Assembly: GCA_951406725.2 (NCBI GenBank)
Contig: OX597840.1
Location: 7,812,001 to 7,876,000, forward strand
Direction: 5' to 3'
Length of the DNA: 64,000 nucleotides
Source of the DNA: Octopus vulgaris
Taxonomy: Eukaryota
In this document: positions 9,156-62,247 of the stretch, piece after piece
Numbering within the stretch: the stretch's first letter is position 1
How the letters are laid out: every line of letters starts with the position of its first letter
Notes under the pieces: generated by a model
Seen by the model: only the letters and a program-made list of their open reading frames with translations
What the model was told of the DNA's origin: nothing
Database searches by the model: none
Program-made: the position numbers and the translations under genes

Positions 9156-9198
9156 TAGTCTGATGATGGCTTAATTGGCCGAAACTTTGAAGTCACTG
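9156..9198 (+). ncRNA. Minimal type-I hammerhead ribozyme motif with intact core and GUC site
   Basis: TAGT-CTGATGA-T-GGC(ttaattg)GCC-GAAA-CTT(tg)AAG-TC-ACTG. Stems I, II and III all pair. Confidence 0.65.
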
Positions 9199-9428
9199 TC
9201 AACAATATTGTTGCTTAAGAGTAATACATTTTGGAGATGTACTTGCATAGCATGTGACCTGATCTGAGATTGTCTGTGGGAACGAATACAATTGCAGCGT
9301 GGAAGGTGTTTATAAGCCATTTAAGAAACACACGAAAGCTGTTAGATTCACTTCAACATTTAAATTTAATTTGCCAAAATATTTTTTCGCTTTCAGACTG
9401 CAACTTGTTCACTGACAAAATTCCGTGC

Positions 9429-9488
<60 letters not shown>

Positions 9489-9569
9489 ATTGCAGTGTGG
9501 AAGGTGTTTATAAGCCATTTAAGAAACACACAAAAACTGTTAGACTCACTTCAACATTTAAATCTAATT

Positions 9570-9616
9570 TGCCAAAATATTTTCGTCGCTTTGAGACCGC
9601 GACCTGTTCACTGACA
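9570..9616 (-). ncRNA. Hammerhead-like motif with G3-C8 swapped core, inverted arm
   Basis: Reverse complement: TGTCA-GTGAACA-G-GTCGC(ggtctcaaa)GCGAC-GAAA-ATAT-TT-TGGCA. Confidence 0.6.
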
Positions 9617-9639
9617 GAATTCCATGCTGCACAGAATTC

Positions 9640-9686
9640 TGTCAGTGATCAGGTCGCGGTCTCAAAGCGACGAAAATATTTTGGCA
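9640..9686 (+). ncRNA. Hammerhead-like motif with G3-C8 swapped core
   Basis: TGTCA-GTGATCA-G-GTCGC(ggtctcaaa)GCGAC-GAAA-ATAT-TT-TGGCA, with palindromic stem III AATATT. Confidence 0.6.
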
Positions 9687-9970
9687 AATTAGACTTAAAT
9701 GTTGAAGTGAATCTAACGGTTTGTGTATGTTTCTTAAAGTAATAAATTTGTACGCTACAAATGTGTAGAGTAACCTCCCAGATTAATGTAAAATTGTTCT
9801 TATTACAACTAAACATAAAAACAGATATTAGCTCATTTATAGACACACACAAATACACACACCCACATACACTCTTCTGGTATGTTTTGTAAGCACAATT
9901 TTCACTGTGGGGGACTTCCTTCATCAAATTGTCAGCTGGATAACGCAATATTTTCAACATCTTCTGACAG

Positions 9971-10945: not shown

Positions 10946-11865
10946 GTATATATATAAAATTAAAATGGGGGTGAAAAATTGGATATTAATTTGATAACAC
11001 CAATTTAACACCAGTGGTCTAGCATATAAAAAAACTGAGGTTCAGTAAATAGTATTACATATATAGTATTACATATAAGAGGGGATTTACAACTATGTGG
11101 AAACCCTTATGCTAGAAGAAGATCCGCTATGGTCTTACCACTAAGAATTGTTCTCTAGAAAATTTAGCAAACGTTTCTTGTATTTGCTAAATTCTCTAGA
11201 GAACAATTCTTAGTGGTAAGACCATAGCGGATCTTCTAGCATAAGGGTTTCCACATAGTGGTAAAATTCCCTCTTATATATATGTAATATTATCATCATC
11301 ATCATCGTTTAACGTCCGTTTTCCGTGCTAGCACGGGTTGGAGGGTTCAACCGGGGTCTGGGAAGACAGGGCTGCACCAGGCTCCAGTCTGATCTGGCAG
11401 TGTTTCTACAGCTGGATGCCCTTCCTAACGCCAACCACTCCGCGAGTGTAGTGGGTGCTTTTTACGTGCCACCTGCACAGGTGCCAGGGGGAGTCTGGCA
11501 TCGGCCACGTTCGGATGGTGCTTTATATATCCTTATTGTAGCAGTCCTTCGGTTTTTCTAAGCACTGTAATAAAACTTGGAAGGTTTGGGCATCCAACAA
11601 GGCCCTTCATGATACCCTTAAAACCATGAACTTTTCAGCCCCACCTTGTATATATATGTATGTATGAGTGTCTATCTGTCCCGAGAGGGTAAAAAGGGTA
11701 TTTACAATGCAGAACCCAACCTGAGCTTTAGGCCCTTCTCCTTCCTCCTTATCCCCTAAACCACACTTTTATCTGCTTTGGTGTTAACACTTTACATGTC
11801 CTGTCCATCTTTTCACAGACTCTTTACGTTTTCTACTTTAATTACTTTTTCTTTCCTCCTGATAG

Positions 11866-25054: not shown

Positions 25055-25209
25055 TAGATACTTATTTTTCTCCGGTTGGTCAAGTGATGTTGACACCTGA
25101 TGAGACCCCAATAAAGCCTGAAAATTTAGGCTGTTCATTTTTTCAATCTATGGAGAAATAGGCATATTTGACATGTCTGCATGTCTACTAGATAGGTTTA
25201 AATATATAT

Positions 25210-29989: not shown

Positions 29990-30318
29990 TTACAGAGATG
30001 TACTTGCATAGCAAGTGACCTGATCTGAGATCATGTGCTGGAACGAAAACAATTGCAGCATGGAAGGTGTTTATAAGCCATTTAAGGAACACACAAAAAC
30101 CGTTAGATTCACTTCAACATTTAAATTTAATTTGTCAAAATATTTTCATCGCTTTGAGACCGTGACCTGTTCACTGACAAAATTCTGTGCTGTCAGAGAA
30201 CAGGTTGCGGTCTCAAAGCGACGAAAATATTTTGACAAATTAAATTTAAATGTTGAAGTGAATCTAACGGTTTTTGTGTGTTCCTTAAATGGCTTATAAA
30301 CACCTTCCACGCTGCAAT
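29990..30318. mobile_element. Fold-back element copy 2 with 12-bp target-site duplication
   Basis: Arms of about 130 bp at 30050-30179 and 30191-30319. TATATCACAAAG flanks at 29978-29989 and 30319-30330. Confidence 0.85.
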
Positions 30319-35368: not shown

Positions 35369-35670
35369 AGCGTGGGAATTGTTTATAAGCCATTTAAGAA
35401 ACACACAAAAACCGTTAGATTCACTTCAACATTTAAATTTAATTTGTCAAAATATTTTCGTCAGTTTGAGACCATGACCTGTTCACTGACAAAATTCTGT
35501 GCTGCACAAAAATATTTTGACAAATTAAATTTAAATGTTGAAGTGAATTGAACGGTTTTTGTGTGTTTCTTAAATGGCTTATAAACACCTTCCATGCTGC
35601 AATTGTTTTCGTTCCAGCACACGATCTCAGATTAGGTCACTTGCTATGCAAGTACATCTCCATCTCCGTA
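35369..35670. mobile_element. Fold-back element copy 3, opposite orientation
   Basis: Ends gctatgcaagtacatctc, the reverse complement of the family start. The right arm lacks the hammerhead core. Confidence 0.8.
35443..35493 (-). ncRNA. Hammerhead-like motif with G3-C8 swapped core
   Basis: Reverse complement: TTTGTCA-GTGAACA-G-GTCA...TGAC-GAAA-ATAT-TT-TGACAAA. Stem II still pairs after two substitutions. Confidence 0.55.
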
Positions 35671-48390: not shown

Positions 48391-48978
48391 GTTTAATACA
48401 GCTCTTATACCACATCGAGGATGTCCTTAAACCCTTGGGATCTGGTTCAAACTTTGATGTCATATATCTTGACTTCAGTAAAGCGTTTGACAGAGTCATC
48501 CACAATATCCTACAGTCAAAATTGTCAAATGTTGGAATCCGTGGAAACTACTACACTGGATTGAGTATTTCCTGGAGAACAGAACACATGTTGTGTTCAG
48601 TGTGATCCACTCAAGCCCAGCAAAAGTCACCAGTGGTGTCCCTCAAGTAACTGTCTTTGGCCTGCTTCTGTCTATAGTCTATATAAACAAAATTTCAAGT
48701 GTCGTAAAACACAGCAAAGTGAAAATATTCACCGATGACTCCGAGCTCCAGAAAATTATCAACGGAGAAGAAAACCCAACTGAACTACAGACTGGTCTAC
48801 ATGTTGTAGGTCAGTGGGCAGGCAAAAACAAAATGTGGTTAAACGAGGGAAAATTTCAACTGATGATTTTGGAAGAAAGACTATGCTAAAATAACCATAT
48901 TCTCTTCCTTCGGGGGAACCACTCACAGCATCTGATAATATCAGAGACCTGGGAGTAATTGTTGACAACAATTTCAGT
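48391..48978 (+). mobile_element. CR1-like LINE reverse transcriptase fragment, frameshifted
   Basis: DVIYLDFSKAFDRV, SGVPQVTVFG, IFTDDSEL, QW..NKMWLNEGK, IRDLGVIVD. Confidence 0.85.
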
Positions 48979-49574
48979 TATTTTCTGTTGAGTTTTTCCA
49001 GTTTCACATAGAATAATAGTAAAAAAAAAGTATACACACTACTTCTGTATTGAGTTCTTTTCTCTCGTTTGTAAGTTCAGTTACCTACTTTTCTCAGTTT
49101 CCCTAATATGCCATTTAGATTTTGAGGAAAGCTGGATAATTGGCTCTGTAGTTGGCTAGGTGTAGTGTAAACACCTATATACGATATATACACAAGCATT
49201 GTGTTAAATGAACGAGAGAGGTGTGCACAGTGCATATTTCTCGTGTAACTCTAGATTCATGCTACTGAAACCTTCAGCTGAGAACTCACCTGAAGATTGC
49301 TGTAGTATGAAACTGAAGACAAGACATTAACAAAAAAAACAGGAACCATCTTCAGTAAGTTTTATATATATATATATATAAAACTTACTGAAGATGGTTT
49401 CTGTGTTTTTTTCTTATGTCTTGTCTTGAGTTTCATGCTACAGCAATCTTCAGGTGTGTGTATAAACGTAGTGTACAGATGCTTACAAAGGGGTTCAATA
49501 CTTCAAGTAGTGTGTATATTTTATGAGAAGTTGAAGTTTCTTGAATTGTAACAGTGGCTTGTCGTACTACCAAT

Positions 49575-56067: not shown

Positions 56068-56128
56068 TTATCGCTGATGAGGGGAAAATTCTTATGAATT
56101 AACCCCGAAATTGGGACCAATGCGGTAA
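56068..56128 (+). ncRNA. Minimal type-I hammerhead motif with G at position 17, probably inactive
   Basis: TTATCG-CTGATGA-GGGG(18 nt)CCCC-GAAA-TTGG(ga)CCAA-TG-CGGTAA, in an AT-rich segment between microsatellites. Confidence 0.6.
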
Positions 56129-56576
56129 TAACAGAATTTTTTAGAAATTCTATCGGCATGTTTCGAGACACATAAATTATAATGGTTATTGACAATTTTG
56201 TCTTTTTTTCGGCATATTTGGCATTAGAATTTTTCTTTTGCCCTTATTTTATAAATTATGTATATATATTTATATATGTATATTTGTATTATATTCAGTA
56301 CTGTTGTTTTTTCTTTCTCAACTCTTATTCACATTTGTCTATGTCTTCTGTTAATGTTGGACACAATTACAAAATGCTGTATGCCTAATCTGATAATATT
56401 CAATATTCTCTCTTTCTCTTTTCTATTTTTCCCTTGTATTTTCTTCACCGTTTCAAAAAAATGACAATAAATCATATACTGTATTTTCAACAACCAAAAC
56501 TTTACCAATTACCATTTCTCTTTAACCTACTGGAATCTTTGCAATGTTCTTGTCTATCTTTGCCATGCATTCTCAG

Positions 56577-61155: not shown

Positions 61156-62247
61156 CTAGCAGTATAGCCCAGCATTGCTCGGGCTTGTTTTCTTTATGAC
61201 CATTTAGAATTGGAATTTTTGAAAAGTAAAAATTTTGCTTTATGTAGCTTGTTATTCTCTTTAAGTGAACATTTTTCTGGTTGAAATACACCGAAAAATG
61301 GCAACACAGCAGTAAAAAAATTGTAAAAAATAGGGATTTTCATAGAAAAAAGCACCTTTTTGATGTAAATAATTTATGGTCTTAACATGGTCCGATTTGA
61401 ATTTTTTCTTGTACAGAAGGAAGAGCAAGCCTTCTTCTATCATACTCTCAATTTTGGTCAACTTGCGCCGCAGGGTCTCGGAGGAGATAGTGTTAGTTGA
61501 AGGCTACCAAACCAGCCACCACCCGGCATTGCTCGGGTTTGTTTCGACCCTTTAGAATTGTAAATTTTGAAAAGTAAAAAGTTTGCTTTATGTAGCTTGT
61601 TATTCTCTTTAAGTGAACATTTTTCTGGTTGAAATACACCGAAAAATGGCGACACAGCAGTAAAAAAATTGTAAAAAATAGGGATTTTCATAGAAAAAAG
61701 CACCTTTTTGATGTAAATAATTTATGGTCTTAACATGGTCCGATTTGAATTTTTTCTTGTACAGAAGGAAGAGCAAGCCTTCTTCTATCATACTCTCAAT
61801 TTTGGTCAACTTGCGCCGCAGGGTCTCGGAGGAGATAGTGTTAGTTGAAGGCTACCAAACCAGCCACCACCCGGCATTGCTCGGGTTTGTTTCGACCCTT
61901 TAGAATTGTAAATTTTGAAAAGTAAAAAGTTTGCTTTATGTAGCTTGTTATTCTCTTTAAGTGAACATTTTTCTGGTTGAAATACACCGAAAAATGGCGA
62001 CACAGCAGTAAAAAAATTCCCAAATATAGGGATTTTCATAGAAAGAAAGCACCTTTTTGATGTAAATAATTTTTAGTGTCAACATGGTCTGATTTGAATT
62101 TTATCTTCTACGGAATGAAGAGCAAGCCTTTTTCTATCATACTCTTAATTTTGGTCAACTTGCACCACATGGTCTCGGAGGAGATAGTGTTAGTTGAAGG
62201 CTACCAAACCTGTCATACACAGGCAACTTCAGCTTTATATATAGAGA
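61156..62247 (-). mobile_element. Non-autonomous Helitron with three 348-bp tandem units
   Basis: Reverse complement is A|TCTCTATATATAAAG...cccgagcaatgctggg..CTAG|T. Period 348 bp (61441 vs 61789). The 3' end matches the 17724 element. Confidence 0.8.

What the first reader, a model, noticed from the sequence alone, without database searches (positions are those of the whole stretch)
9570..9686. Multi-copy hammerhead ribozyme variant with the C3-G8 pair swapped to G3-C8
Seen: stem I (TGTCA/TGRCA), core GTGAWCA, one extra G, stem II GTCGC/GCGAC, GAAA, palindromic stem III AATATT, then U-H. This is full type-I hammerhead topology, except that the core reads G3 U4 G5 A6 N7 C8 A9 instead of CUGANGA. 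Both changes fall on positions 3 and 8. G3 and C8 are kept in all six arms: ~9371-9416 (decayed), 9570-9616, 9640-9686, ~30131-30181, 30191-30238 (U4 mutated) and 35443-35493. The free position 7 varies (A/T). Established: nucleotides 3 and 8 form a tertiary Watson-Crick pair, the compensatory swap retains activity in vitro, and minimal hammerheads with palindromic stem III in Penelope-like elements act as dimers. Inference: this is a non-coding retrozyme-like or Penelope-dependent family that CUGANGA motif searches would miss. I cannot tell whether it is already described. The UUU cleavage triplet is a weak one.
Basis: partly seen in the sequence, partly recalled or inferred. Interest (0 to 1): 0.8.

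Follow-up and report, generated by a model that had tools for sequence, protein, structure and literature searches.

The report
Swapped-core hammerhead in octopus Penelope element
Thousands of short leftovers of a Penelope-type jumping gene in this octopus genome carry a hammerhead-shaped RNA whose paired core letters are swapped (G3-C8 instead of C3-G8) relative to its sister families; it is likely a weak self-cutting RNA of a known kind, but cutting is untested.

Summary
The six arms are about 150- or 205-bp end pieces of one autonomous Penelope-like retroelement (RT, CxxxCxxC linker, C-terminal GIY-YIG), not a retrozyme. The motif lies in the pseudo-LTR, with the predicted cut 56 nt before the ORF start. 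An exact G3-C8 core pattern has 5,883 genomic matches, against 208 G3·G8, 18 C3·C8 and 0 C3-G8. Two related families in the same genome have the homologous motif with C3-G8 and an A-U pair in stem II where this family has G-C. More distant relatives have C3-G8 or U3-A8. So the swap is a natural compensatory change, probably one event. Activity is unproven. Copies were made from uncut RNA, a G3·G8 sub-lineage also spread, a sister family deviates at position 9, and the window copies fold into long hairpins that bury the motif. In the papers I could read, natural U3-A8 and engineered G3-C8 are described, natural G3-C8 is not; two key papers were unavailable. This scan noted G3-C8 before, in protist Penelope-like elements and phages (unchecked notes). 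Verdict: new variant of a known kind, moderate interest.

The parts
9640..9686 (+). G3-C8 minimal type I hammerhead motif; stem I 9640-9644/9682-9686, core 9645-9651, bulged G 9652, stem II 9653-9657/9667-9671, palindrome AATATT 9675-9680, predicted cut after 9681
9570..9616 (-). second intact G3-C8 motif (N7 = A), predicted cut after 9575
9371..9417 (-). decayed G3-C8 motif (stem II broken)
9233..9433 (-). element arm, unit positions 1-202 (pseudo-LTR end plus tail), next to (TA)n
9486..9631 (-). element arm, unit positions 2-147 (ends at the first preferred 3' end)
9624..9738 (+). element arm, unit positions 1-115; forms a long hairpin with 9486-9631
29990..30192 (-). element arm, unit positions 4-206, motif at 30133-30179 with weakened stem II
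30190..30317 (+). element arm, unit positions 16-143, motif at 30191-30237 with U4 changed to A
35370..35506 (-). element arm, unit positions 2-138, motif at 35445-35491 with altered stem II
35506..35661 (+). element arm, unit positions 47-202, lacking the 5' half of the core

Best explanation
The motif is the pseudo-LTR hammerhead of an autonomous Penelope-like retroelement, with the 3-8 core pair swapped from C-G to G-C; it likely still cuts, slowly and only as a dimer or with help from the element's protein, while the window copies are short inverted leftovers predicted to be inactive. Shown: element anatomy (RT, zinc-finger-like linker, GIY-YIG, a 1-1.7 kb microsatellite-rich UTR, hammerhead, ATG 56 nt after the predicted cut), homology of the motif to C3-G8 hammerheads of related families, and copy numbers. 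Inferred: (1) reverse transcription starts at two internal sites about 30 and 90 nt into the ORF, as shown in vitro for a lizard element, which gives the two 3' ends and the tail; (2) it runs back to an RNA 5' end about 16 nt before stem I, probably a capped start inside the pseudo-LTR, so most products are 150- or 205-bp pieces, often with an inverted second arm, inserted at (TA)n; (3) in tandem transcripts two motifs swap stem I strands and pair their AAUAUU palindromes, G3 pairs with C8, and the RNA is cut after U17; (4) cutting is not needed for copying in the short term.
For: Anatomy: upstream sequence traced through shared flanks into GIY-YIG (PF01541, 23.1 bits, cut-off 22.6) and YVDD RT frames; 839-aa open stretch in L129; tandem pseudo-LTR-ORF junction in L135, N-terminus 35% identical to the sister family's. 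Ends: of the first 30 matches of a downstream 34-mer, 3' ends fall at unit 141-154 (11) or 205-207 (16), 3 elsewhere; 5' ends at -7 to +16 (21), 25 (7), 53 and 59 (1 each). Swap: sister family (protein 54% identical) has C3-G8, the same bulged G, GTCAC/GTGAC stem II and U17 at the same place; a further related family has CTGAAGA after the same TGTCA arm; 5 of 26 metagenome relatives show a hammerhead behind the ORF, 4 C3-G8 and 1 U3-A8; the tree joins this family with the C3-G8 sister at 100/100 with C3-G8 outgroups. G3-C8 persists from an older family (copies 74-87% identical to their majority) to the younger ones while N7, loop II and palindrome length (AATT to AATATT) change. Counts 5,883 G3-C8, 208 G3·G8, 18 C3·C8, 0 C3-G8. 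A 1-bp stem III costs 6.7 kcal/mol in the monomer; the active dimer (-20.6) is near two monomers (-22.6). Engineered C3G/G8C partly rescues a Penelope-like hammerhead, which needs protein (PMC11167929).
Against: No cleavage data. 28 of 30 sampled arms extend well upstream of the cut site, so templates were uncut; the one 5' end at position 59 is an inverted junction with stem I microhomology and is ambiguous. A G3·G8 sub-lineage with shared diagnostic changes and different 3' ends has spread (208 copies, 11 times the reciprocal change). The young sister family has C at position 9, and the other C3-G8 family has an imperfect base of stem I, so cores drift in this group. G3 can pair with U17 and extend stem I in the predicted fold; a mispaired dimer is 5.4 kcal/mol more stable than the active one. 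The swap is probably a single event; the pair count used 8 hand-picked related rows, and 55 of 500 shuffles reached the same number of covarying pairs. The whole 839-aa stretch gave no Pfam match. The capped-start reading rests on 7 of 10 arms having GAG where the element has CAG; the same site also looks like a splice acceptor.
Confidence: 0.62

Rival explanations
1. The motif descends from a hammerhead but no longer cuts; it is kept as a folded or sequence signal (protein binding, promoter, template end), or simply hitch-hikes.
For: Uncut templates; G3·G8 sub-lineage; position 9 and stem I deviations in related families; catalytic mutants do not affect insertion in vitro and no cut ends were found in RNA-seq for the lizard element (PMC11167929); a suggestion that these hammerheads may merely parasitize the elements (PMC8557442).
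Against: A double transversion that restores exactly the tertiary 3-8 pair is hard to explain without selection on the catalytic fold; all other core positions are kept (97 of 137 arms have the full 11-nt core) and G3-C8 spans old and young families.
Confidence: 0.28
2. The short copies come from a separate non-autonomous master (SINE-like or retrozyme, possibly a circular RNA) mobilised by a Penelope-like protein.
For: Most copies are 150-205 bp with a clustered 5' end; one fixed palindromic derivative did amplify as a unit (7 of 30 arms); animal retrozymes derive from pseudo-LTRs (bioRxiv 10.64898/2026.07.22.740005, part 1 read).
Against: No head-to-tail monomer arrays cut at the ribozyme site among the loci read; arms are inverted pairs; the unit is continuous with the UTR and ORF of the autonomous element and ends inside its ORF.
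Confidence: 0.07
3. The hammerhead likeness is chance inside a palindromic MITE-like repeat.
For: Folding z-scores are weak; no hammerhead family among the 150 of 301 Rfam matches listed; the unit's ends share a short inverted match.
Against: Rfam also misses the canonical C3-G8 motifs of relatives; the motif aligns with canonical hammerheads at the same position in related elements; strict descriptor 0 hits in 100 shuffles.
Confidence: 0.03

Closest known systems
Minimal type I hammerheads of metazoan Penelope-like elements (Cervera and de la Pena 2014, PMC4209133)
   Same: In the pseudo-LTR, sense strand; extra base between 9 and 10.1; G10.1-C11.1; palindromic stem III; mostly solo or inverted copies; a natural 3-8 covariant (U3-A8) is known in Schistosoma.
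   Different: G3-C8 rather than C3-G8 or U3-A8; bulged base is G where their consensus gives H; stem III has a 6-nt palindrome.
Poseidon element of Anolis (PAc; Frangieh et al. 2024, PMC11167929)
   Same: Hammerhead near the ORF start; two internal reverse-transcription starts that define the tail; AT-rich targets; engineered G3-C8 partly active.
   Different: PAc is naturally C3-G8 and its ORF starts inside the ribozyme; here G3-C8 is the natural state, the ORF starts 56 nt after the predicted cut, the tail is about 60 nt, and a CxxxCxxC linker is present.
Neptune/Nematis-type C-terminal EN+ Penelope-like elements (Craig et al. 2021, PMC8557442)
   Same: C-terminal GIY-YIG, CX2-5CxxC linker, (TA)n targets, inverted 5' copies, tail at one end.
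   Different: Clade not placed against reference sequences here; the hammerhead would be missed by the cuganga string search used in that paper.
Non-LTR retrozymes of animals (bioRxiv 10.64898/2026.07.22.740005; PMC7229834 seen in listing only)
   Same: Type I hammerhead derived from pseudo-LTRs; non-coding short units.
   Different: Retrozymes are head-to-tail arrays; these are inverted end pieces of a coding element.

Membership tests
Hammerhead ribozyme (minimal type I) | Conserved core U4 G5 A6 A9, G12 A13 A14, A15.1-U16.1, H17 | tested here: met
   97 of 137 arms have the full 11-nt core with G3/C8
Hammerhead ribozyme (minimal type I) | Watson-Crick pair between positions 3 and 8 | tested here: met
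   G3-C8 5,883; G3·G8 208; C3·C8 18; C3-G8 0; C3-G8 in related families
Hammerhead ribozyme (minimal type I) | Literal CUGANGA consensus | tested here: not met
   core reads GUGANCA; this is the variation in question
Hammerhead ribozyme (minimal type I) | Stems I and II with covariation | tested here: met
   stems in the minimum-energy fold; two-sided changes at 4 of 11 pairs in 8 hand-picked related rows; not independent events
Hammerhead ribozyme (minimal type I) | Palindromic stem III formed in a dimer | tested here: inconclusive
   palindrome kept; active dimer -20.6 versus mispaired dimer -26.0 kcal/mol
Hammerhead ribozyme (minimal type I) | Self-cleavage after H17 | not testable with these tools
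   no assay; genomic 5' ends do not cluster at the cut
Penelope-like element, C-terminal EN+ | Single ORF with RT and C-terminal GIY-YIG | tested here: met
   whole-protein Pfam scan blank
Penelope-like element, C-terminal EN+ | Pseudo-LTR in partial tandem, inverted 5' copies, optional tail | tested here: met
Neptune/Nematis clades | CX2-5CxxC linker between RT and EN | tested here: met
   CQNNCAVC; definition from PMC8557442
Neptune/Nematis clades | Phylogenetic placement against reference clade members | not tested
   no named reference proteins were included in the tree
Non-LTR retrozyme | Head-to-tail array of non-coding units each with a hammerhead | tested here: not met
   inverted arms continuous with a coding element
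Non-LTR retrozyme | Circular or unit-length RNA | not testable with these tools
   no read data obtained

The most novel reading that the evidence does not exclude
G3-C8 is a fully working third natural state of the hammerhead core, fixed for a long time in a whole lineage of Penelope-like elements and switched on by the element's own protein. Swapped-core hammerheads would then be a large hidden class missed by CUGANGA searches, perhaps including element groups now described as lacking hammerheads, and this genome would hold a natural mutant series (C3-G8, G3-C8, G3·G8) for testing what the ribozyme does in retrotransposition.
Probability: 0.3. Interest if true: 0.65.

Novelty: new variant of a known kind. 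Interest (0 to 1): 0.45.

Why it matters
The role of hammerheads in Penelope-like elements is an open question. This family gives evolutionary support for the tertiary 3-8 pair in its reversed form, so far seen by me only as an engineered rescue, and shows that standard CUGANGA descriptors miss at least about 5,900 motifs in one genome. The related families with C3-G8, G3-C8 and G3·G8 offer a ready comparison for cleavage and mobility assays. The chemistry and the element type are known, so the advance is incremental.

Tried and rejected
Rfam: no hammerhead among the 150 of 301 window matches listed; uninformative, since canonical relatives are missed too. Solved-structure search with the RT piece: nothing significant. 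DNA search with unit positions 61-152 returned nothing because common words are skipped; replaced by patterns. Sequencing runs: no RNA holder listed; no reads were laid, so expression, splicing and RNA ends stay open. MITE reading from the short inverted match at the unit's ends: rejected once the unit was traced into UTR and ORF. A stem II change between the old and young G3-C8 families: rejected as probable CpG decay picked out by my own pattern; it inflates one row. U17 as an adaptation to G3: rejected, C3-G8 relatives have it. Spliced exon 1: no shared upstream exon among 32 arms lacking the acceptor-like flank. Dimer energies for L218 and L230 were mis-sliced by one base and are not used. 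No element ORF or UTR in the window itself; 63 window frames gave no Pfam match above cut-off. Literature: searches found no natural G3-C8 report; Lunse et al. 2017 and Przybilski and Hammann 2007 were not held, one supplement file of PMC4209133 was not searchable, and figure alignments are not visible, so prior mention cannot be excluded.

Full report
Observation. The motif is present as described. At 9640-9686 (+) stem I is TGTCA/TGGCA, the core GTGATCA, then a bulged G, stem II GTCGC/GCGAC, GAA, the palindrome AATATT and U17 at 9681. Six arms carry the core and a seventh lacks its 5' half. The predicted fold contains stems I and II, but its energy is unremarkable (18 of 200 shuffles as good). 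A strict descriptor passed 2 arms and nothing in 100 shuffled windows. Rfam listed no hammerhead (150 of 301 rows shown), but it also misses canonical relatives.

The repeat. The arms belong to a 207-bp unit. The window lies in a 2.8-Gb genome; protein P0001, labelled Octopus vulgaris by its source, matches it at up to 100%, so the host is an octopus. A 34-mer just downstream of the motif has 2,853 exact matches, control 0, and a core pattern with free positions has 8,319, control 1; among the first 100 listed I counted 90 G3-C8, 4 C3-G8 and 6 single changes. Arms usually come as inverted pairs with their 5' ends facing, beside (TA)n. In the first 30 matches on contig C1, 3' ends fall at unit 141-154 (11) or 205-207 (16) and 5' ends mostly at -7 to +16 (21); 7 belong to one fixed palindromic derivative starting at 25 (three pairs of rows are two arms of one insertion).

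The parent element. Some copies continue upstream through a conserved ACTAAC...TTTCTCAG flank and 1-1.7 kb of microsatellite-rich sequence into the end of an ORF. It encodes a YVDD reverse transcriptase, a CQNNCAVC linker and a GIY-YIG domain just above Pfam's cut-off; L129 holds 839 open codons, although the whole stretch gave no Pfam match. 136 homologues reach E 1e-30, a few named reverse transcriptases. L135 shows the tandem junction: flank, hammerhead, then the ORF N-terminus; that copy has a short deletion near the start, and an undeleted arm gives an open frame from the ATG at unit 115 to the tail end. The N-terminus is homologous to the sister family's. This is the anatomy of a C-terminal-endonuclease Penelope-like element with pseudo-LTR, inverted 5' copies and tail (PMC8557442, passages). 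The two 3' ends lie about 30 and 90 nt into the ORF, as expected from two internal reverse-transcription starts (PMC11167929, parts 1-2 of 4 read). The clustered 5' ends suggest that the template RNA begins just before stem I. Of 34 arms examined, 31 lack the upstream flank; 10 of these end in AG, and 7 of the 10 have GAG where the element has CAG, which would fit a copied cap. This is inference. The site also resembles a splice acceptor, and in D. virilis Penelope an intron ends at helix I (PMC4209133, parts 1-2 of 4) and the promoter is internal (PMC2377424, abstract and one section).

Is the swap real? A young sister family, 54% identical in protein with many open frames above 1,300 codons, has at the same place GGACCA CTGATGC G GTCAC...GTGAC GAAA GAAC TT TGGCC: C3-G8, the same bulged G, A-U where this family has G-C in stem II, U17, and C at position 9. 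Another related family has TGTCA CTGAAGA G GTCAC...GTGAC, with an imperfect base of stem I. Among the first 100 of 503 matches to a pattern covering both lineages I counted 49 C3-G8, 31 G3-C8, 4 C3·C8, 3 G3·G8 and 13 others. Of 26 metagenome relatives, many truncated, 5 show a hammerhead behind the ORF: 4 C3-G8 and 1 U3-A8, all but one with palindromic stem III confirmed by the second scan, none G3-C8. A tree of 14 proteins (the two octopus G3-C8 rows, the sister, 11 of the 26 relatives; midpoint root) joins the G3-C8 family and the C3-G8 sister at 100/100, with C3-G8 outside, so G3-C8 is probably derived once. An older family, copies 74-87% identical to their majority, also has G3-C8, with N7 = C, another loop II and the shorter palindrome AATT; a subfamily has yet another loop II. 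A count on 8 hand-picked rows gave two-sided changes at 4 of 11 pairs including 3-8; rows are related and 55 of 500 shuffles matched that number.

Does it cut? Unknown. For: the full core is kept in 97 of 137 arms, with all 10 stem pairs in 55 (sample biased by my queries); engineered C3G/G8C partly restores a Penelope-like hammerhead that needs protein and partly rescues G8C generally (PMC8495972, passage); U17 avoids the G3-C17 trap implied by PMC3884650 (passages). Against: copies were made from uncut RNA; exact counts are 5,883 G3-C8, 208 G3·G8, 18 C3·C8, 0 C3-G8, and the G3·G8 copies share diagnostic changes but differ in 3' ends, so a broken-pair master was copied (some are clustered on C16 and may be duplications); G3·U17 extends stem I; the monomer cannot afford stem III (-4.6 versus -11.3 kcal/mol) and the active dimer (-20.6) lies above a mispaired one (-26.0). 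Read-through transcripts of the window loci would fold into hairpins of -166 and -218 kcal/mol that bury the motif. I put homology and the natural swap at about 0.9 and retained weak activity at about 0.6-0.65.

Comparison with what is known. Natural U3-A8 is reported (PMC4209133; PMC3088659, passages). Eight searches found G3-C8 only as an engineered change. A recent octopus repeat annotation does not mention hammerheads (PMC13282606, term search). Lunse et al. 2017 and Przybilski and Hammann 2007 were not held; a review describes dimer cleavage (PMC6765202, passages). One supplement file of PMC4209133 could not be searched. Retrozymes are tandem arrays (bioRxiv 10.64898/2026.07.22.740005, part 1 of 5) and do not fit. 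Earlier notes of this scan report G3-C8 in protist Penelope-like elements and phages (unchecked); none exists for this genome or sequence. Hammerhead numbering and the inferred dimer geometry follow PMC4209133 and my own knowledge.

Verdict. A real, high-copy natural G3-C8 hammerhead variant in an autonomous Penelope-like element; new variant of a known kind; interest 0.45.

Noticed in passing
L010, L189-L191, L200-L202, L204, L210-L211: A fixed palindromic derivative of about 350 bp (arms starting at unit 5 and 25, identical junction) has amplified as a unit at (TA)n; 7 of 30 sampled arms.
   Followed up: partly
L152-L181: A young sister Penelope-like family with copies about 99% alike and a 1,309-aa ORF; its hammerhead has C3-G8 but C at position 9.
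   Followed up: partly
L072, L078, L079, L086, L088, L092, L101: G3·G8 sub-lineage (208 exact matches genome-wide), many on contig C16.
   Followed up: partly
L220:2493-2535: Metagenome relative with U3-A8 and C9 in the pseudo-LTR hammerhead.
   Followed up: no
window 56068-56135 (+): Canonical CUGAUGA type I hammerhead-like fold with a long stem II and a 5-bp stem III, apparently with G at position 17.
   Followed up: no
window 48491-49457: Weak RVT_1 fragment (48491-48886) followed by an inverted pair of CUGAAGA...GAAA motifs around (TA)n (49288-49454); probably another Penelope-like remnant.
   Followed up: no
window 9160-9190 and 25097-25130 (+): Further CUGANGA...GAAA motifs, apparently decayed.
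   Followed up: no
window 11096-11255: Near-perfect 160-bp palindrome (matches a miRNA model only through its hairpin).
   Followed up: no
window 61200-62100: Tandem repeat with a period of 348 bp, at least 2.5 units in the part read.
   Followed up: no
   Followed up: no
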